Counted from the first letter of the stretch, positions 24,359-36,151 are shown. The stretch: DNA of 38,077 nucleotides from Candidatus Omnitrophota bacterium (GCA_023247755.1 JAHFFX010000002.1:1-38077), one strand, 5' to 3'. Notes: generated by a model from the sequence alone, not told the origin. Numbers and translations: made by a program.

Positions 24359-24362
24359 ATAG

Positions 24363-24430
24363 GGTCACCCGTCACCAGTCACAGGTCACCACAAAATTAC
24401 TTGGTGACTTGTGACGTGTGACATGTGACT
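24363..24430. repeat. heptad-periodic inverted repeat element E1
   Basis: GTCAC occurs at 24364, 24371, 24378 and 24385. GTGAC occurs at 24404, 24411, 24418 and 24425. The arms pair as 14 bp + 5 bp + 6 bp, separated by 2x2 mismatches, around a 10-nt loop (24392-24401). Confidence 0.85.
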
Positions 24431-24451
24431 ATGTAGATTTAATGGTGAAAA

Positions 24452-25426
24452 ATGAAAGAATCCCCGCTTTTCTGGCCCGCGCAATTCAAAGGGAACGTGC
24501 TTCACGTTCTCGATGAGACGCAGGTCCCGGAGAAATTACATTATGTGAAGGTCCGCAACGTCAAGGAAGCGGTGAAGGTCATCCGGAACATGAAGACCCG
24601 GGCCTTCGGGCAGTTCCTGGTCGTGCTGAGCACCTTTCTTTTGGTGTTGAAGAACTCGAAGGTTCGCACCCCGACGGCGCTGCTTTCCGAACTGGAACAA
24701 ACGGCGGAAGCGCTCAACACGAGCCGCCCCACGTTCCCTTTCCGGGAAGTGACGTCGATCGTGGTCGCCTGGGCGAAGGACGCGATCCAAAAGAACATCG
24801 AGCTGCGTCCGTTCCTTGAGAAGAACATCCAGGGTTATTTGATGGGGATCCGTCAGCGGCGCCTGCAGCGGGTCAACGAGATCGCGGAGCTTTTGCGGGA
24901 CGGCGACCGCGTCCTCACGCATTGCAACGTGAGCGGCGAGCTTGCCATGGCCTCGCAGATCGCGCGCGAGCAGCGCAAGTTCGTGCAGTTCTTCGCGACC
25001 GAAACGCGCCCTTATTTTCAAGGGGCGAAACTGACCTGCTGGGAATTGCAGAAGGCCGGCACGCCGGTGACCCTGATCGCCGATAACGCCGTGGGGACCG
25101 TCCTCGCGGACGGATTGGTGGATAAGGTGATCGTTGGGTCCGACCGCTCCTGCGCCAACGGCGACATCGCCAACAAGATCGGGACCTATCAGATCGCGGT
25201 GCTGGCGAAGGAATTCGGGACACCTTTTTACGTTCTTACCCAGCCGTCCAACAAGATCCCGCGGGGGGAAGACATCCCCATCGAGGTCCGCAATCCCGAA
25301 GAGCTTTTGACGTTCGGGAAAAAGCGGATCGTCGCGGGCAAAGTGAACGCCTTCTATCCCGGCTTCGATGTGACGCCGAAGGAATTGATCGAAAGGGAGA
25401 TCGCCATCAATGCACAATCTCGTTAA
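24452..25426 (+). CDS. eIF-2B alpha/beta/delta-family sugar-phosphate isomerase (MtnA-like, divergent)
   Basis: LTHCNVSG (catalytic Cys context), ETRPYFQGAKLTCWEL, VIVGSDRSCANGDIANKIGTY and FYVLTQ are present. The N-terminal region diverges from canonical MtnA (MKTRAFGQF instead of M.VRGAPAIG). Confidence 0.8.
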   Translation: MKESPLFWPAQFKGNVLHVLDETQVPEKLHYVKVRNVKEAVKVIRNMKTRAFGQFLVVLSTFLLVLKNSKVRTPTALLSELEQTAEALNTSRPTFPFREVTSIVVAWAKDAIQKNIELRPFLEKNIQGYLMGIRQRRLQRVNEIAELLRDGDRVLTHCNVSGELAMASQIAREQRKFVQFFATETRPYFQGAKLTCWELQKAGTPVTLIADNAVGTVLADGLVDKVIVGSDRSCANGDIANKIGTYQIAVLAKEFGTPFYVLTQPSNKIPRGEDIPIEVRNPEELLTFGKKRIVAGKVNAFYPGFDVTPKELIEREIAINAQSR

Positions 25427-25925
25427 GCCGGTCGTCATCGTTCAGGGAGTGGTGGAGGCCCGGCTCTTTGATGAATTAAAGGGAAAAGGGGTTACGGAAG
25501 TTTATGTCCTGGAAGGCCGTCCCACGCTCGAGGCGGCGCGGCGCGCCAGCGCGGAGCTTCTTAAGCGCGGCATGACGCCGACGCTCATTTCGGACAACAT
25601 GGCCGGCGTGCTTTTTTACAAGAATCTGGTGAAGGAAGTCTGGATCGCTTTCCAATACGCCGATGAGGAAGGAGCGGCCTGTGACATCGGCGCGCTCATC
25701 CTGGGCGTTCTGGGAAAGCGGCACGGCGTTCCCGTGCGGCTATTTCCGTCGGCGCGGAAAACGAATTTCCTGGGCCGTTCGCAGGACCTCCTCAGTTTCC
25801 TTTCGAAACGCATCGCCCCCAAGGGCGTGGAGGCGTTCGTGCCCCTGGTGGAATGGGTGCCGGCGAAATATATTTCCGCAGTTCCGAAACCCCTGGCCGA
25901 AGATCTGCAGGACGCTCACGTATGA
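25410..25925 (+). CDS. stand-alone half-length eIF-2B/MtnA-like protein (C-terminal Rossmann-like domain only, catalytic motifs absent)
   Basis: The ATG lies 10 nt after AAGGGAG (25393-25399) and overlaps the upstream gene by 17 nt. VYVLEGRPTLEAARRASAELLKRGMTPTLISDNMAG...GALILGVLGKRHGVPV parallels the ETRP...G.P.TLI.D.A...NKIGTY...A..H..P segment. Confidence 0.6.
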   Translation: MHNLVKPVVIVQGVVEARLFDELKGKGVTEVYVLEGRPTLEAARRASAELLKRGMTPTLISDNMAGVLFYKNLVKEVWIAFQYADEEGAACDIGALILGVLGKRHGVPVRLFPSARKTNFLGRSQDLLSFLSKRIAPKGVEAFVPLVEWVPAKYISAVPKPLAEDLQDAHV

Positions 25926-26950
25926 ATGAAGGAATCGCAAAATTAAAGACCGACATCATTGCCATCGGGCGCCTTTTGTGGGACAAGGACCTGGCGAGCG
26001 GGCTTAACGGCAATTTAAGCGCCCGGGTGAGCAACGACGAGATCCTTTTGACCGCGACCCACACCTGCCTGGGGCTGCTGAAGGACAACGACATTTTGCA
26101 TATGAAGCTGGATGGAACGCTTCTTGAGAAGGGAAGCGTATCCACCGAGAAACTTCTGCACACTGAGATCTACAAGAACTTTCCGGACGTGAGCGCGGTC
26201 GTCCATACCCACACGACCTTCACCAACGCTTATTTCCTGGCGAACGACAAGTTCTCCCCGACCACCTATGAAGCGAAATTCTACATCGGGGAAGTGCAGG
26301 GGATCCCCCAGAAAACGCCGTCGGTGACCGACGCGGGGCCGGTCGTTGAGGAACTGAAGCGCAACAGCATCACCGTCCTTAAGAATCACGGGGTCGTCGC
26401 GATGGGCAAGGACCTGTTCGATGGTTTCCTGCTGATCCAGCAGCTTGAGGAATCGATCAAGGTGGACGCGATCAGCCGGTTGTACCAGGTGAATGCCTCG
26501 GGTGCCCAGCGCCCAGCGCCCAGCGTGCAGCCCGCAATGCATAGCGCTCAACCGTCTTCCTTCGGGAACGGGAAGAAATTCAAGCTGTTTTCAAAGGAGC
26601 AGATCGAAGAGATCGTGCGAATCGTGAACGCCGATGCGCAACTGAAGGAATTGGGCGAGAAGACCAAGATGACGATGGACCTGGCGGTGCAGCTCAACGA
26701 AACGGGGGAGACCTACAGTTTCAGTTTCCAGAACGGCCGCATCGCCAAGATCGGCAACGATACCCAGGCGGAATTCCTGATCACTGCTCCTGAAACGGTC
26801 TGGCGCGCGGTGTTCAACCGCCAGATCGATCCGTTCGTCGCGACGACGCAAAAGAAGATGAACCTGCGCGGGGATTTCGCGAAGATTTCGAAATGGTATT
26901 CGCCCTGCAGCCGCATCTTTGAACTTTGGGCCCAGGTGCCGGTGGAATAA
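25922..26950 (+). CDS. class II aldolase/adducin-family protein (MtnB/FucA/Ald2-like) fused to a C-terminal SCP2 sterol-carrier-like domain
   Basis: There is an ATGA overlap with the upstream stop. GLNGNLSARV, STEKLLHTEIY, VVHTHT and LKNHGVVAMG (Zn His ligand positions) are present. A linker ...GAQRPAPSVQPAMHSAQPSSFGNGKK is followed by ~105 aa that read SCP2-like (...DLAVQLNETGETYSFSFQNG...KKMNLRGDFAKISKW). Confidence 0.75.
   Translation: MNEGIAKLKTDIIAIGRLLWDKDLASGLNGNLSARVSNDEILLTATHTCLGLLKDNDILHMKLDGTLLEKGSVSTEKLLHTEIYKNFPDVSAVVHTHTTFTNAYFLANDKFSPTTYEAKFYIGEVQGIPQKTPSVTDAGPVVEELKRNSITVLKNHGVVAMGKDLFDGFLLIQQLEESIKVDAISRLYQVNASGAQRPAPSVQPAMHSAQPSSFGNGKKFKLFSKEQIEEIVRIVNADAQLKELGEKTKMTMDLAVQLNETGETYSFSFQNGRIAKIGNDTQAEFLITAPETVWRAVFNRQIDPFVATTQKKMNLRGDFAKISKWYSPCSRIFELWAQVPVE
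26504..26531 (+). repeat. tandem heptanucleotide repeat (GCCCAGC)x3 + GTGCAGC inside the aldolase-SCP2 linker
   Basis: The units start at 26504, 26511, 26518 and 26525, as read directly from the sequence. Confidence 0.9.
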
Positions 26951-28449
26951 TGCCAACGACCGTTAACATCGAAGAATACCGGATGCTCATCGATGGCCGG
27001 CTAACGCCGGCCCGGGAGCGACGCTCGTTCGAGAGCGTGAATCCTTCCACGGGGGACGTGTTCGCCAGGGTCTCCGATGCCGCAATCGAGGATGTCCAGG
27101 CAGCCATCGCGGCGGCGCGCCGCGCGTTCGACGAAGGGCGCTGGCCGGGTCTCACCTTGGCCCAGCGCGGGAAATTTCTCAAGACGATCGCCGATCTTAT
27201 CCGTGAGAACGCCAAGGAATTGGCCGAGCTCGAGACCTTGAGCACCGGAAAAACGCTCAAGCAGACGACCTTCATCGATGTGCCGACCTGCGCCGATACG
27301 TTTGAATATTTTGGAAGTATTCCCGATCTTTTAAGATCAAGGGAAAACCCGGTGAACGCGCCGGTCAAGAGCCTGACCGAACGCGAGCCGCGCGGGGTGG
27401 TGGCCTGTATCATTCCCTGGAACTATCCTTTGATCATGGCGGCCTGGAAGCTGGCGCCGGCGCTGGCCGCCGGGAATACCGTTATCCTGAAACCTTCGCG
27501 TTTGGGGAGCGTTTCGATCCTCAAGCTCGCGTCCCTTATAGAGAAAGCCGGGTTGCCGGCGGGCGTGGTGAATGTGGTCGCGACGACGCAGGAAGCTGCG
27601 GCCACGGCCCTGGTCAAAAGCCCGCAGGTCGACATGGTGAGCTTCACCGGCGGCACCGCTACCGGCCAGAAGATCATGGCCTGGGCGGCGGAGACGACGA
27701 AGAAGGTCTCGCTCGAGCTCGGGGGCAAATCCCCGAACCTCGTTTTCGCGGATTGCGATTTTGAGGCGGCGTTGGGGGGAACGATGTCGGCCATCTTCAT
27801 GAACCAGGGACAGATGTGCACGGCGGGGGCGCGGCTCTTGCTGGAAGACAAGATCTACGACCGCTTCCTCGAAGAACTGGTCAAGCGGACCAAGGCGCTT
27901 AAGATCGGCAACGCGTTCAACCATGAGACCGAATTCGGCCCGCTGGTGAGCCTTGAACAGCGCAACGGTGTTCTCAAGTTTATAGAGAAGGGCAAGTCGG
28001 AGGGGGCGAAAATTGCGACCGGCGGGCGAATTCCGCCGGGGGCGGAATTCGCCCGGGGGGCGTTCCTCGAACCCACCATCTTTACCGACGTTCGTCCGGA
28101 GATGTTCATCGCCCAAGAAGAGGCGTTCGGCCCGGTCCTTGCCGTATTCAAGTTCTCCGGTGAAGAAGAAGCCGTGCGGCTCGCCAACGATTCAAAGTAC
28201 GGGCTCGCCGCCTGCGTCTGGACCAAAGATGAAGAGAAGGCCCGAAGAATTTCGAAAAAACTGCAGTGCGGCACGGTTTGGGTGAACACCTATGGAGGGT
28301 TCTACAACGAGGCGTCCTTCGGCGGCACCAAGCAGAGCGGTTTCGGCCGCGAGCTCGGTATCGAGGGACTTTTAGAATATACACAGACGAAGCATGTTTG
28401 TATCGACCGCACGCCCGGGGGGAAACCCCTGGCCGCGGCCTGGTTCTGA
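26950..28449 (+). CDS. NAD(P)+-dependent aldehyde dehydrogenase
   Basis: The ATG overlaps the upstream TAA (TAATG). WNYPL, ELGGKSP, FMNQGQMCTAGARL (catalytic Cys) and EEAFGPV are present. Confidence 0.93.
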   Translation: MPTTVNIEEYRMLIDGRLTPARERRSFESVNPSTGDVFARVSDAAIEDVQAAIAAARRAFDEGRWPGLTLAQRGKFLKTIADLIRENAKELAELETLSTGKTLKQTTFIDVPTCADTFEYFGSIPDLLRSRENPVNAPVKSLTEREPRGVVACIIPWNYPLIMAAWKLAPALAAGNTVILKPSRLGSVSILKLASLIEKAGLPAGVVNVVATTQEAAATALVKSPQVDMVSFTGGTATGQKIMAWAAETTKKVSLELGGKSPNLVFADCDFEAALGGTMSAIFMNQGQMCTAGARLLLEDKIYDRFLEELVKRTKALKIGNAFNHETEFGPLVSLEQRNGVLKFIEKGKSEGAKIATGGRIPPGAEFARGAFLEPTIFTDVRPEMFIAQEEAFGPVLAVFKFSGEEEAVRLANDSKYGLAACVWTKDEEKARRISKKLQCGTVWVNTYGGFYNEASFGGTKQSGFGRELGIEGLLEYTQTKHVCIDRTPGGKPLAAAWF

Positions 28450-28544: not shown

Positions 28545-30026
28545 ATGAAAATACTATTCTTAACGCCACCGTTAAAAGCCTGGGATTCGCACGGGTTCCA
28601 CCGCGCCGCCAACCAAATGCACGCGCAGGTCGCCGCCTACGTCCGTTCCAAGGGCCTCGCGACGATCGAAGCGCTCGACTGCCGGGCGATGGACTACGAC
28701 TGGAACACCATGATGCAGAAGATCGACGAGAGCAAGCCCGACATGGTGTTTCTGGGCGATCAGCTGTTCTCGACGCTGGGGGCGGCGGTCATCTGGTATT
28801 TCAACGAAGCGATGCGGATGATCAAGGAGAAGTACCCGAACATCATCACGGTGGCCTCGGGACTGTGGTATTCCGCCGATTACGAGCGGCAGATGCGCTT
28901 GAATCCGTTCATCGATTACATCCTCATCGGCGAAGGGGAACTGACACTTGAGGACCTCCTGACCAACCTCAAGACCAAGGCCAAGAACGAACGGGATATT
29001 CCGGGTCTCGTTTCCCGCCGGGACAAGACGTCGATCGTGATCGGTCCCCACCGCGGGCTTATTCCGGACCTCAACGTTCTTCCCATGCCGGCCTACGAAC
29101 TCTTTCCGATGGAAAAATATGTCGGGCACACCTATTGGAAACCGTTCGCGGAACTGATGACCTCGCGCGGCTGCCCCGGCAAATGCCATTTCTGCTACGA
29201 GTGGGCGCTGTATGACAACCGCACCGCGACCCAGGATTTCACCTCCTGGAGAGGATTGTCCGGCAAACGGATCGTGGATGAACTCGATCTTCTGGAAAAA
29301 AAGTACGGCATCACCTGCGTGGTCATGCAGGATGACGCTTTCAACAGCGACACCAAGGCCATGATCGAATTCTGCGAAGAAAAGATCAAAAGAGGCAACC
29401 AGATCGGGTGGGTCTGCCTTGGCCGCGCCGATCAGTGGATCGCCCAGCAGGATATCCTTCCCCTGATGAGAAAGGCCGGACTTTTCATGGCCCTTACCGG
29501 CGTCGAGGTCGAGGACGATAAGACGCTTACCAAAACGGGGAAAGGGGTCACGATCGACCAGATCAAGCAGACCATCAACCTTCTGCGGGCCCAGGACATC
29601 GGGACCGTCGGCACGGTCCTGATCGGTTTGCGGGAGGACAACGAGGAAAAGATCAAGAAGCGCCTCGAGACCGCCGATGAGATCGACCCCGATGTTTTTG
29701 CGCTGGATTATCTCACGCCGGTCCCCAATTCGCCGGACTGGCGCTATGGGATCCAAAAGGGATGGTTCGATCCGGATAAGATCAATCTCAAGGACTGGGA
29801 CTTCCAGCATCCGGTCATCCCGACGGACAATCTGACCGTTGAGGAAGTGGGCCGCCTGGGCGCGTGGTGCATGCGGGAGTATTATTCGAAGCCGGAGCGC
29901 ATTCACCGCATCATGGAAAGCAATTACGACATCCGGGTCAAACAGTGCGTCATGGACTTCATGAACAACATCTCCAAATGGGAGAAGAACTCCCGCACGC
30001 CGGCTGCCACCGGGGCGGCGGTTTAA
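28545..30026 (+). CDS. B12-binding-domain radical SAM enzyme (class B)
   Basis: The N-terminal flavodoxin-like cobalamin-binding region is MKILFLTPP...PDMVFLG. The CxxxCxxC cluster motif reads TSRGCPGKCHFCYE. Confidence 0.88.
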   Translation: MKILFLTPPLKAWDSHGFHRAANQMHAQVAAYVRSKGLATIEALDCRAMDYDWNTMMQKIDESKPDMVFLGDQLFSTLGAAVIWYFNEAMRMIKEKYPNIITVASGLWYSADYERQMRLNPFIDYILIGEGELTLEDLLTNLKTKAKNERDIPGLVSRRDKTSIVIGPHRGLIPDLNVLPMPAYELFPMEKYVGHTYWKPFAELMTSRGCPGKCHFCYEWALYDNRTATQDFTSWRGLSGKRIVDELDLLEKKYGITCVVMQDDAFNSDTKAMIEFCEEKIKRGNQIGWVCLGRADQWIAQQDILPLMRKAGLFMALTGVEVEDDKTLTKTGKGVTIDQIKQTINLLRAQDIGTVGTVLIGLREDNEEKIKKRLETADEIDPDVFALDYLTPVPNSPDWRYGIQKGWFDPDKINLKDWDFQHPVIPTDNLTVEEVGRLGAWCMREYYSKPERIHRIMESNYDIRVKQCVMDFMNNISKWEKNSRTPAATGAAV

Positions 30027-30027
30027 T

Positions 30028-30099
30028 CGTCGCTCGGGGCACGTGACTCGTGATCCGTCCGAGTATTGGCGGGTCACGGTCCACGTGTCACGGAACACA
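30028..30099. repeat. heptad-periodic inverted repeat element E2
   Basis: The left register has CGTC, CGGG, CGTG, CGTG, CGTC at 30028, 30035, 30042, 30049 and 30056. The right register has CACG, CACG, CACG, CACA at 30075, 30082, 30089 and 30096. The arms pair imperfectly (6 + 4 + 4 bp). Confidence 0.7.
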
Positions 30100-30115
30100 C
30101 AAAGGAACTACGAGA

Positions 30116-30397
30116 ATGAACCCAGCTCAAACACATCCCAGGCTCGCCTGGGAACCATCCGCCCAGGAGCGTTATAAATTGATGATCGCGAAGATCCCGC
30201 TCTTCCACCGCGAGATCGCCAAGATCGTCGTCGATAAGAAAGCCGAATTGAACGCCATCGACCGGGGGGCCTCCCGGGTGGAAGAACCCGACATCGTGCG
30301 CGCGTTCCTCACGGAAGTGCCCGTCGCTTTTTACGGTCTCATGGTCCGTCTTTTGGATGAAGTGGGCTTTGAGCATCGGAAGTACGAAACCAAGTAA
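30116..30397 (+). CDS. small PCP_red-like protein (protochlorophyllide reductase subunit B C-terminal-domain family)
   Basis: I chose the internal ATG at 30116 because the longer ORF-track N-terminus runs through E2. AWEPSAQERYKLMIAKIPLFHREIAKIVVDKKAELNAIDRGASRVEEPDIVRAF fits W.P.A...L..IP.F.R......E..A...G...V. Confidence 0.6.
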   Translation: MNPAQTHPRLAWEPSAQERYKLMIAKIPLFHREIAKIVVDKKAELNAIDRGASRVEEPDIVRAFLTEVPVAFYGLMVRLLDEVGFEHRKYETK

Positions 30398-30450: not shown

Positions 30451-30915
30451 ATGGAAAAAACCAATCATCATTTTGTTTTCATCGAGGCCCCGGTGGACAT
30501 CGTGGGCCCGCAGATCATTGCCTGGGGGGAGGCTTCCTGGTGGCCCGAAGGTTCCCAAATGCGTTTTAATAAGACCACCTCCGGGGAATTGGGGATCGGC
30601 ACGGAATATGAGATGCGGATCAAGGCCCCGTTCGTGTCACCCTTGTCCTGCCGGGTCACGAAACTGGACCCCGCCCGGGAGATCGAACGCACGTTCCTCA
30701 CCGGTATGTTCAAGGGGCGCGAGATTGTCAGCGCCGAGGAACGGTATAACGGAACGAAAGTGAAATATACCATGTATTACCAGGTCCAAGGAATCCTTAA
30801 CGCGATCTTGTGGCCGATCCTCTTTCGTCGTTTGCACGATGCGAACATCGAGCTGATCATGGCGGCCCTCAAGCGATATTGCGAACAAAAGGCCAATCCT
30901 CCGGAGGGGACATGA
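30451..30915 (+). CDS. SRPBCC-superfamily protein (polyketide cyclase/dehydrase-like START fold)
   Basis: It starts at the ATG at 30451 (MEKTNHHFVFIEAPVDIV...). Length and pattern (I.AP...V, W.P, G.G, GT.V.Y...) are typical of Polyketide_cyc2-type proteins. Confidence 0.6.
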   Translation: MEKTNHHFVFIEAPVDIVGPQIIAWGEASWWPEGSQMRFNKTTSGELGIGTEYEMRIKAPFVSPLSCRVTKLDPAREIERTFLTGMFKGREIVSAEERYNGTKVKYTMYYQVQGILNAILWPILFRRLHDANIELIMAALKRYCEQKANPPEGT

Positions 30916-31925
30916 ACATCGCGGTCATCGGCGCGGGGGCGATCGGCTCGGTCGTAGCCAGCTATCTGACGAAGGCGGGAGTGTCGGTCACCCTCATCGG
31001 CCGGCCGGACCAGGTCACGGCGATCCGCAAGAGCGGTCTGCATGTGATGGGTGTGCGGGGGGAGGAAACGTTCCAGTTCCCCGCCCTGATGAAACTGGAC
31101 AAGGCCTATGATGTCGTTATCTTTACCGTCAAGACTCAGGACCTCGAATCGGCCTATCTGGAGAACCAGGACCATCTGGAGTCGGGGTTCATCCTTACCA
31201 CGCAGAATGGCGTTCAGGCCGATAATGTCCTCAGCAGCCACTTCGAGCGGGATAAATTGATCAGCAGCATCGTGATGTTCGGGGCGACCTACGTGCGCCC
31301 CGGGGAAGTGACCTTCAATTTTGAGGGCGACTGGATCATCGGCAAACCCTATTTTCCCAACGATCCCTTCGTGCATGAGCTGGCGGGAGTCCTGCAAAAA
31401 GCTTTCAAGGTCAACGTCTCCAATGACATCATGGGAATGAAATGGCTCAAGCTCTTCATCAATTTCAACAACTGTATCCCGGCGCTGCTGGGAAAGTCCA
31501 TGCAGGAGACGTTCGCGGACCTGGACTTTTGCCGCCTGAGCATGCTGCTTCTTAAGGAAGGCATCGAGGTGACGCGCAAGGCGGGGGTGAAGCTGGTTTC
31601 GCTGCCGCAGTTCCCGGTGGAGCGCATCGATGGACTTTCGGCGATGCCCGTTGAGCAGGGGGCGGCGATCGTCAATAAGACCCTGACGGGGTTGAGCAAG
31701 GAGCCGCTGTACGGTTCCATCCTGCAGAGCATCATGAGAAAGAAGACCAGCGAGATCGATTTCATCAACGGGGAAGTGGCCCACCTGGCGCAGGCGATGG
31801 GTCTGTCGGCGCCCCTCAACCGCAAGATCGTGGACCTCGTGCACGAGGTGGAGCGGGAGGGGAAGTTCTTCTCGCGGGATGAAGTGAAGAGGAAATTTAG
31901 TTTGAGTTCGCCTGGTGACCGGTGA
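30912..31925 (+). CDS. ApbA/PanE-family NAD(P)H-dependent 2-oxoacid/ketone reductase (ketopantoate-reductase-like)
   Basis: There is an ATGA overlap with the SRPBCC stop. MNIAVIGAGAIGSVVASYL, VKTQDL and EIDFINGEVAHLAQAMGLSAPLN are present. Confidence 0.85.
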   Translation: MNIAVIGAGAIGSVVASYLTKAGVSVTLIGRPDQVTAIRKSGLHVMGVRGEETFQFPALMKLDKAYDVVIFTVKTQDLESAYLENQDHLESGFILTTQNGVQADNVLSSHFERDKLISSIVMFGATYVRPGEVTFNFEGDWIIGKPYFPNDPFVHELAGVLQKAFKVNVSNDIMGMKWLKLFINFNNCIPALLGKSMQETFADLDFCRLSMLLLKEGIEVTRKAGVKLVSLPQFPVERIDGLSAMPVEQGAAIVNKTLTGLSKEPLYGSILQSIMRKKTSEIDFINGEVAHLAQAMGLSAPLNRKIVDLVHEVEREGKFFSRDEVKRKFSLSSPGDR

Positions 31926-32014: not shown

Positions 32015-33277
32015 ATGAAAACCAAACGACGCGTCGTAGTGACCGGGGTCGGCATCGTTTCCCCCAACGGGGTCGGGGCCGAGGCCTGCTACCGCAATAT
32101 GATCAACGGTGTGTCCGCCGTCAAAAGGGTGACCGAGTTCGACGTGTCGCTTTTTAACACCAAGATCGCGGCCCAGGTGCGGGATTTCGATCCATGGAAG
32201 CTGGGCCTCACCAGCGAAGAGATCGTGCGCATGGACCGCTACGTCCAGTTCGCGATGGTCGCCGCGCGCATGGCGATCGAGGATTCCAGATTGAACTTAA
32301 GCCAGGTGGACCGGGAGCGCACGGGCGTTTCGCTCGCCAACGCCATCTGCGGCACCAAATATATGGAAGAGGAGTTCGCGCTGGTGACCGACAGCGGCAA
32401 GAACCCGATCGACCCTTCGATCGTGCGTCCGGACCTGTATGATGCCTCCATGTTCAACACGCCCTCGAGCGAGATCTCGGCCAAGTACGGTCTGCTGGGA
32501 GTTTGCAATACGATCTCCACGGGCTGCACCGCCGGGACCGATTCCGTCGGGTTTTCCTATGAAGCCATTGCGGATGGGGAAGCTGATATCATGGTGACCG
32601 GAGCGGCAGAGGCGCCCATCACGCCGATCACCTTTGGCGCTTTCGATACCGTGAACGTCCTGTCGGTGCACAACGAATTTCCGGAAAAGGCTTCAAGGCC
32701 TTTCGACGCCCGTCGTAACGGGTTCGTGATTTCCGAGGGCGCAGGAATTATAGTGGTAGAAGAGCTCAATCACGCCCTCAAGCGCGGCGCCAGGATCTAT
32801 TGCGAAGTGACCGGCTTCGGCACGACGAATAATGCCTTTCACATGACCGACCTGCCCCCCGATGGGGACGCGATGGCGGATTGCATCAACCTTGCCATGC
32901 GGGATGCGGACCTCAAGCCCAGTGAACTCGATTACGTCAACGCGCACGGCTCTTCCACCCGCCAGAACGATGTGTTCGAGACCAGCGCCTACAAGATGGC
33001 GCTGGGAGAATACGCCTACAAGATCCCGATCAGTTCGGTGAAATCCATGATCGGGCATCCGCTGGCCGGGGCGAACGGCATCGAGATCGCTTTAAGCTCG
33101 ATGATCTTTGAGCGCAATATCTTGCCGCCAACGATCAACCAGGAAGAGAAGGACCCCCAATGCGATCTGGATTACATCCCCAACACGGCGCGGGAGAAGA
33201 AGGTGAATTCGATCCTCAAGACGAGCTCGGGATTCTCGGGGATTCATTCGGCTATGGTTTTAGAACGATTTAAATGA
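32015..33277 (+). CDS. beta-ketoacyl synthase, type II PKS KS-alpha-like
   Basis: AAGGAAA precedes the ATG. The active-site context ISTGCTAGTDSVG (Cys codon 32525-32527) resembles the PKS KS-alpha motif STGCTSGLD more than FabF. NAHGSST and SMIGHPLAGANG supply the two catalytic His residues. Confidence 0.88.
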   Translation: MKTKRRVVVTGVGIVSPNGVGAEACYRNMINGVSAVKRVTEFDVSLFNTKIAAQVRDFDPWKLGLTSEEIVRMDRYVQFAMVAARMAIEDSRLNLSQVDRERTGVSLANAICGTKYMEEEFALVTDSGKNPIDPSIVRPDLYDASMFNTPSSEISAKYGLLGVCNTISTGCTAGTDSVGFSYEAIADGEADIMVTGAAEAPITPITFGAFDTVNVLSVHNEFPEKASRPFDARRNGFVISEGAGIIVVEELNHALKRGARIYCEVTGFGTTNNAFHMTDLPPDGDAMADCINLAMRDADLKPSELDYVNAHGSSTRQNDVFETSAYKMALGEYAYKIPISSVKSMIGHPLAGANGIEIALSSMIFERNILPPTINQEEKDPQCDLDYIPNTAREKKVNSILKTSSGFSGIHSAMVLERFK

Positions 33278-33282
33278 TCATT

Positions 33283-33346
33283 GGTGATTCGTGCCTCGTG
33301 GCACGTCAACAAATCACGTGTCACGAGGCACGGAGCACGATACACA
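33283..33346. repeat. heptad-periodic inverted repeat element E4
   Basis: GGTG, CGTG, CGTG, CGTC occur at 33283, 33290, 33297 and 33304. CAC occurs at 33315, 33322, 33329, 33336 and 33343. The 17-bp stem 33290-33306/33316-33332 has a single G-T (G-U) pair and a 9-nt loop. Confidence 0.85.
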
Positions 33347-33365
33347 AATCAGGATTGGAGAAGTT

Positions 33366-34598
33366 ATGGAAAAGATCGCAATAACCGGGCTCGGCATCGT
33401 CAGCCCCAGCGGCATGGACAAACGCTCATTCTGGGCGAACCTGAAGGCGGGTCATTCCAAGGTTGAGAAGATCGAGCGCTTCGATGCCTCCCAATACCCT
33501 TCCCGCATCGCCGGCCATGTTCACGATCTGGACGCCTACAGCAACGTTTCCTCGCGGCTGCTTAAGAAGATCGACGTTTTCTCACACATGGCGCTGGTGG
33601 CTTCGGAGCTGGCGATCCAGGATGCCGCCATCGATATGGCGAAGGAGGATCTTAAGCGTGTGGGGATCTTCATGGGGAACGCCATCGGCGGCTGGCTGTA
33701 CGCCGAGACCGAGCTGCGCGATATGTATCTGGAAGGCCGGGAGGGCGTGAGCCCCTTCATGGCCTCGGCCTGGTTTCCCGCGGCCCCGCAAGGACAGGTT
33801 TCGATCCATTACGGGATCAAGGGCTACAGCAAGACGATCGTTTCCGACCGCGCTTCATCCTTGATGGCGATCGCCTATGCGGCCAAAAATCTTGAGCGGA
33901 ATAACAACGATCTGATCCTCGCCGGCGGCATGGAAGCGCCGGTCACTCCGTACGCGCTTTTGTGCTGCAATACTTCCGGGGTGCTTACGAAGCGCAACGA
34001 TGAGGCGGAAACCGCCTATCGCCCTTTTGACAAGACCCGCGACGGGATGGCGATCGCGGAAGGGGCGGGAATTCTGACCCTGGAGACCGGGGAGCGCGCC
34101 GGCAAGCGCAAGGCCCACGCTTATGGATATATCACCGGTTTCGGCACGACGACCGACGGGGTGGACCGCATCGAACCGGCCGCCGACGGCAAACAGCTTG
34201 CCCGCGCCATCCGCATGGCGCTGGATGACGCGAAGCTCGATCCCAAGGACATCGACTATATTTGCGCCGACGGCGCCGGAACGGTCATCGGCGATATCTC
34301 GGAGACGAAAGCGATCAAGCAGGTCTTTAACGGCAATGCCCAAAAGATCCCCGTCTCCGCCCCAAAATCGATGTTCGGGAATCTGCTGGGGGCGTCGGGC
34401 GCGCTCGATGTGATCCTGACACTGTTGTCCATGGAACATTCGACCGTTCTGCCCACGATCAATTATCTTAAGGCCGATCCGGAGTGCGATCTGGATTATT
34501 GTCCCAACAAGGCGCAGGCGAAAGAAATAAGGAACGCTTTGGTCATTAACCGCGGCCGGGGCGGGATCAACGCCGTCCTGGTGCTACAAAAGAATTAA
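33366..34598 (+). CDS. KS-beta / chain-length-factor-like ketosynthase paralogue lacking the Cys-His-His triad
   Basis: The ATG at 33366 follows GGAG (33357-60); the ORF-track start at 33291 lies in E4. Aligned to the upstream KS, Cys becomes Arg (TIVSDRASS, codon 33849-33851), the first His becomes Asp (CADGAGT) and the second His becomes Asn (KSMFGNLLGASG). Confidence 0.85.
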   Translation: MEKIAITGLGIVSPSGMDKRSFWANLKAGHSKVEKIERFDASQYPSRIAGHVHDLDAYSNVSSRLLKKIDVFSHMALVASELAIQDAAIDMAKEDLKRVGIFMGNAIGGWLYAETELRDMYLEGREGVSPFMASAWFPAAPQGQVSIHYGIKGYSKTIVSDRASSLMAIAYAAKNLERNNNDLILAGGMEAPVTPYALLCCNTSGVLTKRNDEAETAYRPFDKTRDGMAIAEGAGILTLETGERAGKRKAHAYGYITGFGTTTDGVDRIEPAADGKQLARAIRMALDDAKLDPKDIDYICADGAGTVIGDISETKAIKQVFNGNAQKIPVSAPKSMFGNLLGASGALDVILTLLSMEHSTVLPTINYLKADPECDLDYCPNKAQAKEIRNALVINRGRGGINAVLVLQKN

Positions 34599-34738: not shown

Positions 34739-34996
34739 GTGTCAACAGACCAACAGACCACCACCATCGAACAACGCATCAAAGCGATCTTCAACAAGGT
34801 CCTCGATATCGCTCCGGAAGAGGTCAAGCCCGATGACAAGCTCGACGCGTCGCTCGGCATCGACTCCACGGAAATGGTGGAGATCTCGGTGGGATTAAAG
34901 AAGGAGTTCGGCGTGCCGATCGCGGATAATGAGATCAAGAAGACGCACACGTTCAATGAGATCGTTGGGATCCTGAGAACCAAGGGCGCCCGGTAA
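34739..34996 (+). CDS. acyl carrier protein
   Basis: GTG at 34739 lies 7 nt after AGGAGG (34726-31). The phosphopantetheine site is in LGIDSTEMVEISVGLKKEFGV. Confidence 0.85.
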   Translation: MSTDQQTTTIEQRIKAIFNKVLDIAPEEVKPDDKLDASLGIDSTEMVEISVGLKKEFGVPIADNEIKKTHTFNEIVGILRTKGAR

Positions 34997-35008: not shown

Positions 35009-35812
35009 ATGAAGATCATCGACCTGAGCCTTCCCATTGACGATTCCCTTGTGGAGACCCACGATGCCAAGATCGAGCGCATCACGCACGCCGCCGGGGT
35101 GGAGCACTTCAATTGGGTGGTGATGAGTAAACAGCCCAATGGGCAGGAGCGTTTCGACCGGGGCGAGCGGGTCGCGACCGCCGATGAGATCCCCGACGGC
35201 GAAATGCTGTCCTTGGAGATCGTCAATTCTTCCGTCCACATGGGTTCACATGTGGACGCGCCGTTCCATTACGGGTCCACCTGCGAAGGCAAACCCGCCA
35301 AGCAGATCATGGACATTCCCCTGGAATGGTGTTACGGCCCCGGGGTCGTTCTCGATTTCACCTACCTTAAATTTCCCGAATTCATCACGAAAGACCATAT
35401 CGTCGCCGCGCTTAAGAAGATCGATTACCGGCTTACGCCCGGCGACATCGTTCTTCTATATACCGGCGGCGACAAGCTGCTGGGCACGGATGACTACGTC
35501 AACAAATACGTCGGCTGTGTCCCCAGCGCCATTGAATACCTGCTGGATGCCGGCATCAAGATGATGGGCATCGACACCATCGGCCTCGACCGGCCGTGCT
35601 TCCTCATGTTCAAAGAATTCCTCGCGACCAAGGACCGGTCCAAGATATGGCCGTGCCATTTTCTGGGGCGGCGCCGCGAGTACTGTCATATGGAGCGATT
35701 AGGGAATCTTGGAGCTATTCCAAAACCGTTTGGCTTTAAGGTGTCGTGCTTGCCGGTTAAAGTGAGGAATGCCGGAGCAGGTTGGGCCAGGGTAGTAGCA
35801 ATCTTTGACTAG
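35009..35812 (+). CDS. 'putative cyclase' family metal-dependent enzyme (kynurenine-formamidase/polyketide-cyclase family)
   Basis: The family motif HxGxHxDxPxH is present as HMGSHVDAPFH. The C-terminal ...LGNLGAIPKPFGFKVSCLPVKVRNAGAGWARVVAI is typical of the family. Confidence 0.85.
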   Translation: MKIIDLSLPIDDSLVETHDAKIERITHAAGVEHFNWVVMSKQPNGQERFDRGERVATADEIPDGEMLSLEIVNSSVHMGSHVDAPFHYGSTCEGKPAKQIMDIPLEWCYGPGVVLDFTYLKFPEFITKDHIVAALKKIDYRLTPGDIVLLYTGGDKLLGTDDYVNKYVGCVPSAIEYLLDAGIKMMGIDTIGLDRPCFLMFKEFLATKDRSKIWPCHFLGRRREYCHMERLGNLGAIPKPFGFKVSCLPVKVRNAGAGWARVVAIFD

Positions 35813-35819
35813 GGCCGTC

Positions 35820-35866
35820 CGCCAATCCGCAGAAGCGGATTGGCGAGATCTCGCCATCCGCCTTTT
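35820..35866 (+). terminator. double hairpin plus short T-run after the cyclase gene (terminator-like)
   Basis: CGCCAATCCGC agaa GCGGATTGGCG forms an 11-bp stem. The palindrome GGCGAGATCTCGCC follows at 35842-35855, then ...CCTTTTC. Confidence 0.4.
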
Positions 35867-35951
35867 CAATGAGTTTATTGGAGCGGATGGCGGGCTGGGG
35901 CTGGTTGGGCGCGGGTCGTTGCAATCGTCGATTATTAAAAGGGGGGGCGCA

Positions 35952-36143
35952 ATGAAGAAATTCTACCGTTCCGAAACCAACAAGAAGATCATGGGTGTCT
36001 GCGGAGGCCTGGGCGAGTATTTCGGCATCGACCCGGTGATCCTGAGGATCGTTTTCGTCGTGCTGGCCCTTGCTGGGGGATTCGGCTTGCTCATCTACAT
36101 CGTGATGGGGGTCCTCTTGCCGCCGAAATCGAAGGTCTCCTGA
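35952..36143 (+). CDS. PspC-domain membrane protein
   Basis: MKKFYRSETNKKIMGVCGGLGEYFGIDPVILRIVFVVLALAGGFGLLIYIV. The longer ORF-track N-terminus covers the terminator hairpins and was discounted. Confidence 0.8.
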   Translation: MKKFYRSETNKKIMGVCGGLGEYFGIDPVILRIVFVVLALAGGFGLLIYIVMGVLLPPKSKVS

Positions 36144-36151
36144 TCGCGCCG

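What the first reader, a model, noticed from the sequence alone, without database searches (positions are those of the whole stretch)
32015..34598. KS-alpha / KS-beta heterodimer-like pair in which the second subunit has lost Cys, His and His (Arg/Asp/Asn) and lacks the usual CLF glutamine
The first KS has a PKS-type active-site context (ISTGCTAGTDSVG) and both catalytic His residues.

Aligned residue by residue, the adjacent paralogue shows Cys to Arg (codon 33849-33851), His to Asp (CADGAGT) and His to Asn (SMFGNLLG).

Canonical chain-length factors carry Gln at the Cys position, which supports malonyl-ACP decarboxylative priming. An Arg there argues for a purely structural or chain-gating partner. 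It also implies an external starter, for which the ligase at 22024 is a candidate.

An ACP and a cyclase follow directly downstream.
Basis: partly seen in the sequence, partly recalled or inferred. Interest (0 to 1): 0.7.

Follow-up and report, generated by a model that had tools for sequence, protein, structure and literature searches.

The report
Ancestral-type type II PKS ketosynthase pair
The two adjacent genes encode the working ketosynthase and its catalytically dead "chain-length factor" partner of an aromatic (type II) polyketide synthase from an uncultured Omnitrophota bacterium; the Arg that replaces the textbook Gln is real, but it is the usual state in non-actinobacterial relatives, so the pair is a fairly ordinary member of a known kind, set in an unusually well conserved operon.

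Summary
KS1 (32015-33277) keeps Cys171/His311/His348. KS2 (ATG 33366-34598) has Arg162/Asp302/Asn339 at those columns, and these residues are invariant in 57 orthologous loci.

In a bootstrapped tree, every Cys-less partner, including the actinorhodin CLF, forms one clade with KS2 (100%). KS1 groups with KS-alpha (84%). The pair is therefore a genuine KS-alpha/CLF pair, not FAS and probably not a polyene system.

Three points reduce the novelty:
- His-to-Asp is the normal CLF state. The act CLF is Q/D/R.
- Arg or Lys at the Cys column is common in non-actinobacterial CLFs: Clostridium (clostrubin producers), Ktedonobacter, Archangium, Paenibacillus and Bacillus.
- AntE is already reported to have Asp at that column.

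Several of these clusters have no priming enzyme, so "no Gln means an external starter" does not follow. A starter supplied by the ligase remains possible, because the ligase is syntenic.

The pair sits in an operon conserved across about 50 Omnitrophota species. Upstream lie DHAP-shunt-like genes, an ALDH, a B12-radical SAM enzyme and a KPR-like reductase. Downstream lie the ACP and an OxyN-type cyclase. Relatives also carry a TcmN-type cyclase, an MFS transporter, an SDR and a decarboxylase-like gene beyond the window end.

KS2 is under strong purifying selection (dN/dS about 0.04). The product is unknown. Interest is moderate.

The parts
32015..33277 (+). KS1, the catalytic ketosynthase (KS-alpha), 420 aa. 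Cys171 is codon 32525-32527, His311 is 32945-32947, His348 is 33056-33058.
   Evidence: PF00109 and PF02801. Best solved relatives are act KS-alpha 1TQY_A (386 bits) and AntD (377 bits). Groups with Streptomyces and Bacillus KS-alpha at 84% bootstrap. dN/dS 0.024.
33366..34598 (+). KS2, the chain-length-factor-like partner (KS-beta), 410 aa. The ORF is extendable to the GTG at 33291. It lacks the catalytic triad.
   Evidence: PF00109 and PF02801. R/D/N at the C/H/H columns. Lies in one clade with canonical CLFs at 100% bootstrap. dN/dS 0.039. 34% of sites are invariant in 57 orthologues.
33849..33851 (+). CGC codon for Arg162, at the column of the KS Cys and the CLF Gln161.
   Evidence: Invariant in 57 orthologues.
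34269..34271 (+). Asp302 codon, at the first His column. Canonical CLFs have the same residue.
34380..34382 (+). Asn339 codon, at the second His column. This position is Arg in the act CLF and His in the Dehalococcoidales orthologues.
34557..34559 (+). Arg398 codon in NRGRGGIN, at the column of the FabF gating Phe (GFGG). The act CLF also has Arg here (RGRWG).
34739..34996 (+). Acyl carrier protein, 85 aa, with the serine motif LGIDSTE.
   Evidence: PF00550, 44.7 bits. Gene call.
35009..35812 (+). PF04199 (OxyN-type) metal-dependent cyclase/hydrolase. The metal motif VHMGSHVDAPFH is intact.
   Evidence: PF04199, 98 bits. Present in 62 related loci, including Dehalococcoidales. The same family occurs in the Clostridium, Archangium, Paenibacillus, Ktedonobacter and Bacillus type II PKS clusters. 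PMC7693217 describes OxyN as part of the ancestral architecture.
30912..31925 (+). Ketopantoate-reductase-like (ApbA/PanE) NAD(P)H oxidoreductase. It lies upstream of KS1 in Omnitrophota and in Dehalococcoidales.
   Evidence: PF02558 and PF08546. Synteny. Role is inferred only.
28545..30026 (+). B12-binding radical SAM enzyme. It is BchE-like but scores below the cutoff.
   Evidence: PF02310 and PF04055. TIGR02026 gives 179 bits against a cutoff of 481. Syntenic in most Omnitrophota loci. Role is inferred.
30116..30397 (+). Conserved 93-aa protein with weak DUF2621/PCP_red similarity, directly after the rSAM gene.
30452..30915 (+). 154-aa protein with no family match. It is present in 22 related loci and is not SRPBCC by profile comparison.
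22024..23538 (+). ANL-superfamily acyl-CoA/AMP ligase (FadD-like), first gene of the conserved block. It is a candidate starter-activating enzyme.
   Evidence: PF00501 and PF13193. Nearest solved relatives are FadD5 and feruloyl-CoA synthetase. Synteny.
23594..28449 (+). Five genes: PNP_UDP_1 phosphorylase (23594-24358); MtnA-like isomerase (24452-25426); a truncated IF-2B paralogue (25410-25925); a class II aldolase-SCP2 fusion (25853-26950); and an aldehyde dehydrogenase (26926-28449). Together they form a DHAP-shunt-like set plus an aldehyde oxidation step.
   Evidence: The order is conserved in about 50 species. Dehalococcoidales have AOR plus PNP and MtnA next to the orthologous PKS. The link to the PKS rests on synteny only.

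Best explanation
KS1 and KS2 are the KS-alpha and chain-length-factor subunits of a minimal type II (aromatic) polyketide synthase. It belongs to the non-actinobacterial type that the literature calls ancestral. The host is an uncultured Omnitrophota bacterium.

Inferred mechanism, by homology to act KS/CLF and AntDE:
- The two proteins form a heterodimer.
- KS1 uses Cys171/His311/His348 to condense malonyl units carried by the adjacent ACP, iteratively.
- KS2 has no condensing or canonical decarboxylating chemistry. It supplies the far wall of the acyl tunnel at the dimer interface. The gate positions corresponding to act CLF F109/T112/F116 and W194/G195 are W110/A113/L117 and Y196/A197. It also supplies ACP-docking surface.
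- KS2's vestigial active site is filled by invariant charged residues (Arg162, Asp302, Lys334, Arg398), probably as a salt-bridge network.
- The poly-beta-ketone is then folded by the OxyN-type cyclase. In relatives, and probably just beyond the window end here, it is also processed by a TcmN-type cyclase, an SDR ketoreductase and an Amidohydro_2 decarboxylase/hydrolase. An MFS transporter is also present there.
- Priming is unresolved. One route is decarboxylation of malonyl-ACP on KS1, as the Gln-less AntDE must do. The other is an acyl starter made by the upstream ligase.

Shown: identity, residues, clade, synteny and selective constraint. Inferred: heterodimer formation, tunnel role, salt bridge and product class.
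For: - Triads and motifs.
- Phylogeny: all 28 Cys-less partners, including two Streptomyces CLFs (one 93% identical to 1TQY_B), form one clade with 100% support. KS1 plus Streptomyces/Bacillus KS-alpha has 84% support. The Omnitrophota plus Dehalococcoidales KS2 clade has 99% and the KS1 clade 100%.
- CLF-specific motifs are shared by KS2 and act CLF: 'aDGAG' and 'RGR.G.N'.
- KS1 scores far higher against aromatic KS-alpha (386 and 377 bits) than against the polyene KS Iga11, 6KXD_A (215 bits).
- KS1 lies directly upstream of KS2 in 61 loci. The gap is -1 to 7 nt in 12 of them, which is translational-coupling distance, and 88 nt here.
- Relatives with Arg-type CLFs sit in textbook aromatic type II PKS clusters: C. 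beijerinckii/puniceum (clostrubin producers), Archangium, Paenibacillus, Ktedonobacter and Bacillus.
- Orthologous loci carry OxyN-type and TcmN-type cyclases, an SDR, Amidohydro_2 and an MFS transporter. The KS-CLF-ACP-TcmN-OxyN architecture is described as ancestral in PMC7693217.
- Purifying selection on KS2 equals that on KS1.
- The catalogue paper PMC10132072 already lists KS-CLF pairs in Candidatus Omnitrophica.
Against: - No biochemical data exist for any member of the Omnitrophota/Dehalococcoidales clade.
- Heterodimer formation could not be modelled, because no multimer tool was available.
- The monomer AlphaFold model is only moderate (pLDDT 71.7). It is poor exactly in the interface segments 107-139 and 192-208. 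Fold search does not separate CLF from FabF.
- KS2 scores higher against FabF (303 bits) than against act CLF (240 bits) in pairwise search. The act CLF itself shows the same pattern, with 215 bits to FabF and 147 bits to KS-alpha.
- The TcmN-type cyclase, SDR and other downstream genes lie beyond the window end and could not be confirmed in this genome.
- The tree is neighbour-joining on a sample drawn from KS2's own best hits. It contains no ApeO/ApeC or Iga sequences.
- Very high conservation across a phylum is atypical for a secondary-metabolite cluster.
Confidence: 0.75

Rival explanations
1. Starter-primed variant. Because KS2 cannot decarboxylate malonyl-ACP, the synthase depends on a non-acetate acyl starter. 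The proposed route is:
1. The PNP-family phosphorylase, MtnA-like isomerase and class II aldolase convert a 5'-substituted nucleoside (5'-deoxyadenosine, MTA or a lipid-linked analogue) to DHAP plus an aldehyde.
2. ALDH (or AOR in Dehalococcoidales) oxidises the aldehyde to the acid.
3. The ANL ligase activates the acid for loading onto the ACP or KS1.
For: - The ligase-PNP-MtnA-MtnA'-aldolase/SCP2-ALDH block is collinear with the PKS in about 50 Omnitrophota species.
- Dehalococcoidales orthologous operons have an aldehyde:ferredoxin oxidoreductase where ALDH would be, and PNP plus MtnA next to the operon. An aldehyde-oxidising step and the nucleoside-salvage genes therefore travel with this PKS in two phyla.
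- The SCP2 fusion, DegV and the FadD-like ligase all hint at a hydrophobic acid.
- Other Arg-CLF clusters carry priming genes: KSIII in Clostridium, a ligase near the Bacillus cluster and an Asn-synthase-like gene in Archangium.
Against: - Gln-less CLFs work without dedicated primers. AntE has Asp at this column (PMC6638757).
- The Ktedonobacter and Paenibacillus Arg-CLF clusters contain no ligase, KSIII or acyltransferase.
- The salvage genes could simply remove 5'-deoxyadenosine produced by the adjacent radical SAM enzyme.
- No ligase or aldolase was seen in the Dehalococcoidales stretches.
- The ligase has no diagnostic similarity to known starter ligases.
Confidence: 0.35
2. KS2 is not merely structural. 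Its invariant cationic pocket (Arg162, Lys334, Arg398, opposed by Asp302) binds an anionic group. That group could be the malonyl carboxylate, a phosphate or a carboxylated intermediate. KS2 would then carry out or assist a non-canonical step such as decarboxylation, cyclisation or holding the intermediate, in the manner proposed for the AmcG 'cyclization factor'.
For: - The former active-site residues are 100% invariant in 57 orthologues, whereas only 34% of all sites are invariant.
- More distant relatives keep a basic residue at the Cys column and mostly an acidic one at the first His column: R-E-H, K-D-H, R-D-H and R-D-N, with R-N-H, R-A-N and R-H-H as exceptions.
- The AmcF-AmcG precedent shows that a KS partner may have a role beyond chain length (PMC10698177).
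Against: - A buried salt bridge would be equally invariant for purely structural reasons.
- Both His residues that KS-type decarboxylation needs are absent.
- No coordinates were available to test pocket accessibility.
- The canonical act CLF has a similar charged set (Q/D/R/R/K) and is regarded as non-condensing.
Confidence: 0.1
3. The pair is a primary-metabolism fatty-acid or lipid synthase (FabF-like). It would be a heterodimeric elongating KS that makes membrane lipid precursors in Omnitrophota, which would explain the phylum-wide conservation.
For: - KS1 passes the NCBIfam subfamily model for beta-ketoacyl-ACP synthase II (436 bits against a cutoff of 387).
- The KS proteins are 70-91% identical across species, with saturated dS.
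- Per PMC9902471, antiSMASH annotated 'ladderane' clusters in Omnitrophota and other non-anammox MAGs. That paper does not tie this operon to that label.
Against: - Both proteins fall below the FabF equivalog cutoff, at 449 and 395 bits against 493.75.
- KS1 and KS2 fall in the KS-alpha and CLF clades, not with FabF.
- No dehydratase or enoyl reductase was seen in the family-annotated parts of the window or of the related loci examined.
- The cluster instead carries OxyN-type and TcmN-type polyketide cyclases.
- The rSAM enzyme scores 76 bits against a cutoff of 360 for the ladderane-type model.
Confidence: 0.05
4. The pair is a highly reducing (polyene or aryl-polyene type) type II PKS, like Iga11/Iga12 or ApeO/ApeC.
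For: The pair is a heterodimer-type KS with a dead partner. An SDR is present in relatives.
Against: - KS1 scores 215 bits to the polyene KS Iga11 (6KXD_A) against 386 bits to act KS-alpha.
- The cluster has no dehydratase.
- Cyclases are present.
- No ApeO/ApeC or Iga sequences were included in the tree, so this rests on score comparison and context.
Confidence: 0.04

Closest known systems
Actinorhodin KS/CLF heterodimer (Streptomyces coelicolor, PDB 1TQY)
   Same: - The gene order is the same, with the KS upstream of the CLF.
- KS1 is 43% identical to an act-type KS-alpha, with the same STGCT.G.DSVG motif and the same Cys/His/His triad.
- KS2 is 35% identical to the act-type CLF. It shares Asp at the first His column ('aDGAG'), Arg at the gating-Phe column ('RGR.G.N') and the retained Lys.
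- KS2 lies in one clade with it at 100% bootstrap.
   Different: - The act CLF has Gln161 where KS2 has Arg162, and Arg where KS2 has Asn339.
- The gate residues are F/T/F;W/G in act and W/A/L;Y/A in KS2.
- The host is an anaerobic uncultured Omnitrophota bacterium, not an actinomycete.
- The accessory genes differ. A KPR-like reductase, a B12-rSAM enzyme and salvage genes take the place of ActIII/VII/IV and oxygenases.
Clostridial type II PKS of the clostrubin producers (Clostridium beijerinckii / C. puniceum; ClrA/ClrB), and other non-actinobacterial 'ancestral' systems (Ktedonobacter, Archangium, Paenibacillus, Bacillus pseudomycoides)
   Same: - Arg sits at the Cys/Gln column: R-E-H, R-H-H, R-D-H, R-D-N and R-E-H respectively.
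- An OxyN-type PF04199 cyclase and a TcmN-type SRPBCC cyclase are present in each of these clusters. Amidohydro_2 was seen in the Clostridium and Paenibacillus clusters. The Clostridium hosts are anaerobes.
- The tunnel gate residues are near-identical. ClrB-type has W/G/L;Y/A and Ktedonobacter has W/A/L;Y/A.
   Different: - Identity to KS2 is only 39-44%, and the Omnitrophota/Dehalococcoidales proteins form their own 99-100% supported clade.
- These clusters carry their own PPTase (ACPS). None was seen in the Omnitrophota block.
- The upstream ligase/salvage/ALDH/B12-rSAM/KPR block is specific to Omnitrophota.
- That P0131 is ClrB itself is inferred from organism and cluster content. It was not checked against the published sequence.
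AntD/AntE (Photorhabdus anthraquinone PKS, PDB 6SMO/6SMP)
   Same: - It is a non-actinobacterial KS/CLF whose CLF also lacks the Gln. Asp is reported at that column (PMC6638757).
- KS1 scores 377 bits to AntD.
- The ant cluster also contains a CoA-ligase homologue (own knowledge).
   Different: - AntE has Asp, not Arg.
- The product (AQ-256) and the partners are known for Ant. Nothing is known here.
FabF (KAS II) of type II fatty-acid synthesis
   Same: Same fold, with TM about 0.78. Identity is 35-37%. KS1 has the full triad.
   Different: - FabF is a homodimer of identical active subunits.
- Both window proteins score below the FabF equivalog cutoff.
- KS2 lacks the triad and the gating Phe.
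- The gene context lacks FabG/Z/I.
Non-canonical KS partners: Iga12 (polyene type II PKS), AmcG 'cyclization factor' (cispentacin)
   Same: Each is a catalytically dead partner that heterodimerises with an active KS (PMC10698177, PMC9006962).
   Different: - AmcG lacks parts of the KS fold and has no recognisable motifs, whereas KS2 is a full-length KS fold within the CLF clade.
- Iga11 is a much weaker match to KS1 (215 bits).

Membership tests
Type II aromatic PKS minimal synthase (KS-alpha/CLF/ACP) | KS-alpha with the Cys-His-His triad and the KS-alpha-type active-site motif | tested here: met
   Cys171, His311 and His348; the motif ISTGCTAGTDSVG aligns with act VSTGCTSGLDSVG.
Type II aromatic PKS minimal synthase (KS-alpha/CLF/ACP) | An adjacent downstream paralogue without the catalytic Cys that belongs to the CLF lineage | tested here: met
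   KS2 lies directly downstream. The clade of all Cys-less partners, including the act-type CLFs, has 100% bootstrap support. The CLF motifs aDGAG and RGR.G.N are shared.
Type II aromatic PKS minimal synthase (KS-alpha/CLF/ACP) | Gln at the Cys column of the CLF (Gln161 of act CLF) | tested here: not met
   The residue is Arg162 (CGC, 33849-33851). The feature defines actinobacterial CLFs only. It is also absent from the Clostridium, Ktedonobacter, Archangium, Paenibacillus and Bacillus CLFs and from AntE.
Type II aromatic PKS minimal synthase (KS-alpha/CLF/ACP) | A dedicated ACP in the cluster | tested here: met
   34739-34996, PF00550 at 44.7 bits, DS motif present.
Type II aromatic PKS minimal synthase (KS-alpha/CLF/ACP) | Polyketide cyclases or aromatases in the cluster (OxyN-type and TcmN-type) | tested here: inconclusive
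   The OxyN-type PF04199 cyclase is present in the window (35009-35812). The TcmN-type SRPBCC cyclase is found downstream in 53 related loci. That position lies beyond the window end, and this genome's contig could not be retrieved.
Type II aromatic PKS minimal synthase (KS-alpha/CLF/ACP) | A physical KS/CLF heterodimer that produces a poly-beta-ketone of defined length | not testable with these tools
   No multimer prediction or biochemistry was available. The monomer model has low confidence in the interface segments.
FabF / KAS II (type II FAS) | Scores above the curated equivalog cutoff, forms a homodimer, and sits in a FAS gene context | tested here: not met
   TIGR03150 gives 449 bits (KS1) and 395 bits (KS2) against a cutoff of 493.75. 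Both proteins fall outside the FabF group in the tree. No fabG/Z/I genes were found among the family-annotated window genes.
Highly reducing / aryl-polyene type II PKS (Iga11-12, ApeO-ApeC) | KS closest to polyene-type KS; a dehydratase and a KR in the cluster; no aromatic cyclases | tested here: not met
   KS1 scores 215 bits to Iga11 (6KXD_A) against 386 bits to act KS-alpha. Cyclases are present and no dehydratase is seen. No tree with Ape or Iga sequences was built.
Ladderane-type lipid cluster (antiSMASH class) | A B12-rSAM enzyme of the TIGR04072 type next to a KS and an ACP | tested here: not met
   TIGR04072 scores 76 bits against a cutoff of 360. The best rSAM match is BchE-like, at 179 bits against a cutoff of 481.

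The most novel reading that the evidence does not exclude
The operon is not an ordinary antibiotic cluster. It would be a vertically inherited, strongly constrained anaerobic pathway shared by Omnitrophota and some Dehalococcoidales. It would make a physiologically essential aromatic polyketide, for example a quinone-like redox carrier or a lipid-anchored aromatic. Two features would set it apart. The starter acid would come from a SAM by-product or an adenosylated intermediate, through the PNP / MtnA / aldolase-SCP2 / ALDH (or AOR) / ligase route. The B12-radical SAM enzyme would provide oxygen-independent tailoring. The Arg-type CLF would then be part of a primary-metabolic type II PKS.
Probability: 0.12. 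Interest if true: 0.8.

Novelty: new member of a known kind. Interest (0 to 1): 0.38.

Why it matters
For the finding as stated, the main value is corrective. A CLF without Gln, and with Asp at the first His column, is not an anomaly. Arg or Lys at the Cys column is a recurrent state in the non-actinobacterial type II PKS clusters sampled here. It should not be read as proof of an external starter.

What remains of interest is the context. The operon is a complete-looking aromatic polyketide pathway, and it is conserved gene by gene across dozens of species of Omnitrophota. That phylum is almost entirely uncultured, anaerobic and often ultra-small. The core enzymes are 70-90% identical even though synonymous sites are saturated. 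The operon is also physically coupled to DHAP-shunt-like salvage genes, an aldehyde oxidoreductase and a BchE-like B12-radical SAM enzyme.

This marks the product as physiologically important. It also offers non-actinobacterial KS/CLF pairs that might be tried for expression in E. coli, both for mechanistic work on Gln-less CLFs and for oxygen-independent tailoring chemistry.

Tried and rejected
1. FabF/FAS assignment was rejected on curated cutoffs, tree position and context.
2. Ladderane-type cluster was rejected, because the rSAM enzyme scores far below the TIGR04072 cutoff.
3. Cispentacin AmcF/AmcG type was rejected. The NCBIfam hits are only partial and far below cutoff (147-154 bits against 325). 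AmcG also lacks KS motifs, whereas KS2 is a full KS fold.
4. The 154-aa ORF at 30452-30915 was tested as a TcmN-like SRPBCC aromatase. It has no Pfam hit even at E=5, and hhalign probability against SRPBCC cyclases is 0.2%. The real TcmN-type gene lies downstream of the cyclase in relatives.
5. Structure prediction of KS2 followed by a PDB fold search was uninformative. All KS folds score TM about 0.77, with FabF and KS chains (1TQY_A, AntDE chains) interleaved, and the interface regions are low-confidence.
6. Retrieving this genome's own contig beyond the window end failed, because no DNA was available.
7. Literature searches for Omnitrophota plus ketosynthase gave no hits. Searches for an explicit discussion of Arg-type CLFs found none in the Ktedonobacter or Gloeocapsa papers or in the 2026 KS-evolution preprint. 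The Hillenmeyer 2015 PNAS paper is not held.
8. Chain-length prediction from the gate residues only shows similarity to the Ktedonobacter and Clostridium CLFs. No chain length is claimed.
9. The promoter and terminator scan gave counts no higher than in shuffled sequence.

Full report
**1. Observation**

The region holds two adjacent plus-strand genes of the beta-ketoacyl synthase family (PF00109 and PF02801).

KS1 (32015-33277, 420 aa) aligns end to end with actinorhodin KS-alpha (1TQY_A, 386 bits) and with AntD of the Photorhabdus anthraquinone PKS (6SMO_B, 377 bits). It keeps Cys171 in the motif ISTGCTAGTDSVG, plus His311 and His348.

KS2 is best started at the ATG at 33366, giving 410 aa. 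All 120 listed homologues are about 410 aa long, although the ORF is open back to the GTG at 33291. Aligned to FabF, KS2 has Arg162 at the Cys column, Asp302 at the first His column and Asn339 at the second His column.
- Arg162 is codon CGC at 33849-33851.
- Asp302 lies in CADGAGT, codon 34269-34271.
- Asn339 lies in MFGNLLG, codon 34380-34382.

The gating Phe of FabF (GFGG) is Arg398 in KS2 (GRGG). The catalytic-network Lys is retained as Lys334.

An ACP (34739-34996) and a PF04199 cyclase (35009-35812) follow directly downstream.

**2. The substitutions are fixed, not accidental**

R/D/N is found in 123 of 123 close homologues. The five residues R162, D302, N339, K334 and R398 are invariant in 57 orthologues from related loci. 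By comparison, only 34% of all KS2 positions are invariant, against 39% for KS1.

Against the closest relative (L001), synonymous sites are saturated (dS above 2). dN is only 0.087 for KS2 and 0.063 for KS1, giving dN/dS of 0.039 and 0.024. KS2 is as constrained as the catalytic subunit.

**3. Organism and distribution**

The named homologues come from Candidatus Omnitrophota MAGs. Some are labelled 'uncultured Planctomycetales' in one MAG series. KS2 identity to them is 70-89%. Dehalococcoidales MAGs form a sister group at 58-62%.

A search of 1.84 billion cluster representatives found only one other full-length 50%-identity cluster close to KS2, at 62%. The next single-domain relatives are at 47% identity or less.

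**4. What the pair is**

I built a neighbour-joining tree with 300 bootstraps from 59 sequences. They comprised:
- the window pair;
- Omnitrophota and Dehalococcoidales orthologues;
- a Bacillus pseudomycoides pair;
- two Streptomyces KS-alpha/CLF pairs, one of whose CLFs is 93% identical to the solved act CLF 1TQY_B;
- assorted FabF-like proteins;
- E. coli FabF and FabB;
- 29 database representatives.

All 28 Cys-less proteins, including the Streptomyces CLFs and KS2, form one clade with 100% support. KS1 groups with Streptomyces and Bacillus KS-alpha at 84%.

The act-type CLF has Q/D/R at the three columns, Arg at the gating-Phe column and the retained Lys. It shares the motifs 'aDGAG' and 'RGR.G.N' with KS2. 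Only the Arg-for-Gln and Asn-for-Arg changes separate KS2 from the textbook CLF.

KS2's higher pairwise score to FabF (303 bits) than to act CLF (240 bits) is not an objection. The act CLF behaves the same way, scoring 215 bits to FabF and 147 bits to KS-alpha.

KS1 scores much lower against the polyene-type KS Iga11, 6KXD_A, at 215 bits. Both window proteins fall below the curated FabF equivalog cutoff.

**5. Arg at this column is common outside actinomycetes**

Among the more distant relatives, the three columns read as follows:

| Triad | Source |
|---|---|
| R-E-H | Clostridium beijerinckii / C. puniceum, the clostrubin producers; also Bacillus pseudomycoides |
| R-H-H | Ktedonobacter racemifer |
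| R-D-H | Archangium violaceum |
| R-D-N | Paenibacillus |
| K-D-H, R-N-H, R-A-N, R-D-Q | metagenomic sequences |

The gene neighbourhoods of these relatives are textbook aromatic type II PKS clusters. They contain KS, CLF, ACP, a PPTase, a PF04199 cyclase and an SRPBCC cyclase. They also carry various combinations of KR, methyltransferases, cupins, hydrolases and transporters.

[quoted passage not shown] A supplementary-figure legend in PMC6638757 states that AntE carries Asp where act CLF has the Gln 'intrinsic to starter unit decarboxylation'. A 2023 catalogue already lists KS-CLF pairs in Candidatus Omnitrophica (PMC10132072).

I found no paper that discusses the Arg itself.

**6. Consequence for the starter argument**

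The Ktedonobacter and Paenibacillus Arg-CLF clusters contain no ligase, KSIII or acyltransferase. The Gln-less AntDE system makes an acetate-derived octaketide (own knowledge). An Arg at this column therefore does not by itself imply an external starter.

The ligase hypothesis survives on a different ground, which is synteny.

**7. The operon**

From a promoter-like site at 21883-21910, the genes run on one strand with short gaps. That site has no statistical weight. The order is:
1. ANL ligase (22024-23538).
2. PNP_UDP_1 phosphorylase.
3. An MtnA-like isomerase.
4. A conserved truncated IF-2B paralogue.
5. A class II aldolase fused to SCP2.
6. An aldehyde dehydrogenase.
7. A B12-binding radical SAM enzyme. 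It is BchE-like but far below cutoff.
8. A 93-aa protein.
9. A 154-aa protein without family.
10. A ketopantoate-reductase-like oxidoreductase.
11. KS1, KS2, the ACP and the cyclase.

tblastn of these proteins against 80 related loci shows the same order in about 50 Omnitrophota species.

In the relatives, the conserved block continues downstream of the cyclase with:
- a TcmN-type SRPBCC cyclase (53 loci);
- an MFS transporter (44 loci);
- an SDR (46-47 loci);
- a PC4-like protein (35 loci);
- an Amidohydro_2 protein (40 loci).

In this window, a PspC gene and membrane-protein genes follow the cyclase, and the window ends at 38077. In the close relative L002, the SRPBCC gene lies about 4.3 kb after the cyclase start. 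That would be just past the window end. This genome's own contig could not be retrieved.

Dehalococcoidales have the order DegV, AOR, KPR, an unknown gene, KS, CLF, ACP, OxyN-type cyclase, TcmN-type cyclase, SDR and Amidohydro_2. PNP and MtnA are divergently adjacent.

So an aldehyde-oxidising enzyme (ALDH or AOR), the KPR-like reductase and the PNP/MtnA pair accompany this PKS in two phyla. The radical SAM enzyme and the ligase were seen only in Omnitrophota.

**8. Mechanism proposed**

Shown: the identity of the two subunits, their residues, their clade, their tight linkage and their constraint. On linkage, the gap between the genes is -1 to 7 nt in 12 loci and 88 nt here. In some genomes the gap is enlarged by inserted small two-gene modules.

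Inferred from the act and Ant structures (own knowledge, and review PMC9006962):
- KS1 and KS2 form a heterodimer, and KS1 carries out all condensations with malonyl-ACP.
- KS2 closes the acyl tunnel. At the act CLF gate positions F109/T112/F116 and W194/G195, KS2 has W110/A113/L117 and Y196/A197. W110 and L117 are invariant. The set is identical to Ktedonobacter and almost identical to the clostridial CLF. No chain length can be claimed from this.
- In FabF the Cys and the two His residues lie within a few ångströms of one another (own knowledge). Arg162 and Asp302 should therefore be able to pair and fill the dead pocket. A basic residue at the first column and an acidic one at the second recur together in most members of the clade, though not all, which fits this picture. 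I could not measure it, because the structure tool returns no coordinates. The monomer model is also weak at the interface.

Priming is open. I put about 0.35 on a ligase-delivered starter.

**9. Rival readings**

| Reading | Confidence | Main point |
|---|---|---|
| A new ligand-binding or catalytic role for KS2's cationic pocket | about 0.1 | Cannot be excluded |
| A housekeeping FAS role | about 0.05 | Disfavoured by clade, curated cutoffs and the presence of cyclases |
| A polyene-type PKS | about 0.04 | Disfavoured by scores and context |

**10. Verdict**

The finding is real and correctly located, but it is less unusual than it looked. It is a new member, in an uncultured phylum, of the known non-actinobacterial type II PKS kind. 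In that kind a Gln-less CLF, usually with Arg, is common.

The part that deserves follow-up is the phylum-wide, strongly constrained operon. It couples this PKS to salvage-type sugar-phosphate enzymes, an aldehyde oxidoreductase, a KPR-like reductase and a B12-radical SAM enzyme. The product and physiological role are unknown.

Noticed in passing
window 23594-28449: A DHAP-shunt-like gene set lies here: a PNP-family phosphorylase, an MtnA-like isomerase and a class II aldolase, followed by an aldehyde dehydrogenase. It is collinear with the PKS in about 50 Omnitrophota species. Dehalococcoidales relatives have an aldehyde:ferredoxin oxidoreductase plus PNP and MtnA next to the orthologous PKS. 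Whether this set disposes of 5'-deoxyadenosine from the neighbouring radical SAM enzyme or supplies a precursor is unresolved.
   Followed up: partly
window 25410-25925: A 171-aa ORF matches only the C-terminal half of IF-2B/MtnA. It overlaps the end of the full-length MtnA-like gene (24452-25426). It is conserved at 41-63% identity in the related loci, so it looks like a maintained truncated paralogue rather than a pseudogene.
   Followed up: partly
window 25853-26950: The class II aldolase carries a C-terminal SCP2 (lipid-binding) domain. This is not a feature of known DHAP-shunt aldolases (own knowledge). Together with the FadD-like ligase, it hints at a hydrophobic substrate.
   Followed up: no
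window 28545-30397: A B12-binding radical SAM enzyme is most similar to the anaerobic cyclase BchE, at 179 bits against a cutoff of 481. A conserved 93-aa protein with weak DUF2621/PCP_red similarity follows it. The pair could provide oxygen-independent tailoring. A Paenibacillus Arg-CLF cluster (L086) likewise carries two HemN-like rSAM genes and a U32 peptidase.
   Followed up: partly
L005 9123-10001; L006 9348-10001; L010 4980-5595; L012 9186-10001; L015 5291-6090: In several Omnitrophota genomes, a small two-gene module has been inserted between KS1 and KS2. It consists of a 66-85-aa ORF plus an ORF of about 128-151 aa, and it resembles a toxin-antitoxin pair. In other genomes the two KS genes are separated by -1 to 7 nt.
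   Followed up: partly
window 23541-23570: A perfect GC-rich palindrome with a 13-bp stem (CGCAGGGGCCGCACATGTGCGGCCCCTGCG) lies in the 55-nt gap between the ligase and the phosphorylase genes. It could be a terminator, an attenuator or a repeat element.
   Followed up: no
window 13981-15975: A 664-aa ORF has only weak coiled-coil-type matches (crescentin rod, below cutoff). It lies in a stretch with a strong AT skew of +0.26. The next 2 kb have a skew of -0.15.
   Followed up: no
window 18885-19676: A DeoC/LacD-family aldolase scores well above the NCBIfam cutoff for the LsrF-type 3-hydroxy-5-phosphonooxypentane-2,4-dione thiolase (417 bits against 297). It is also related to ADH synthase of the archaeal aromatic amino-acid route. 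A minus-strand ORF (20021-20962) and a PadR regulator gene (21299-21814) separate it from the PKS operon.
   Followed up: no
window 499-12290: A glycogen and alpha-glucan metabolism block lies here. It contains a phosphorylase-like gene, a branching-enzyme-like gene, a GH57/DUF3536 gene and a 4-alpha-glucanotransferase gene. Thymidylate synthase, DHFR and an EAL response regulator are interspersed. It is unrelated to the finding.
   Followed up: no
window 35805-38067: A PspC-domain protein and several small membrane-protein ORFs follow the cyclase in this genome. In the close relative L001, the TcmN-type cyclase, MFS, SDR and Amidohydro_2 genes follow within a few hundred bases of the cyclase. 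The cluster appears to be interrupted here, and its remainder probably lies beyond the window end.
   Followed up: partly
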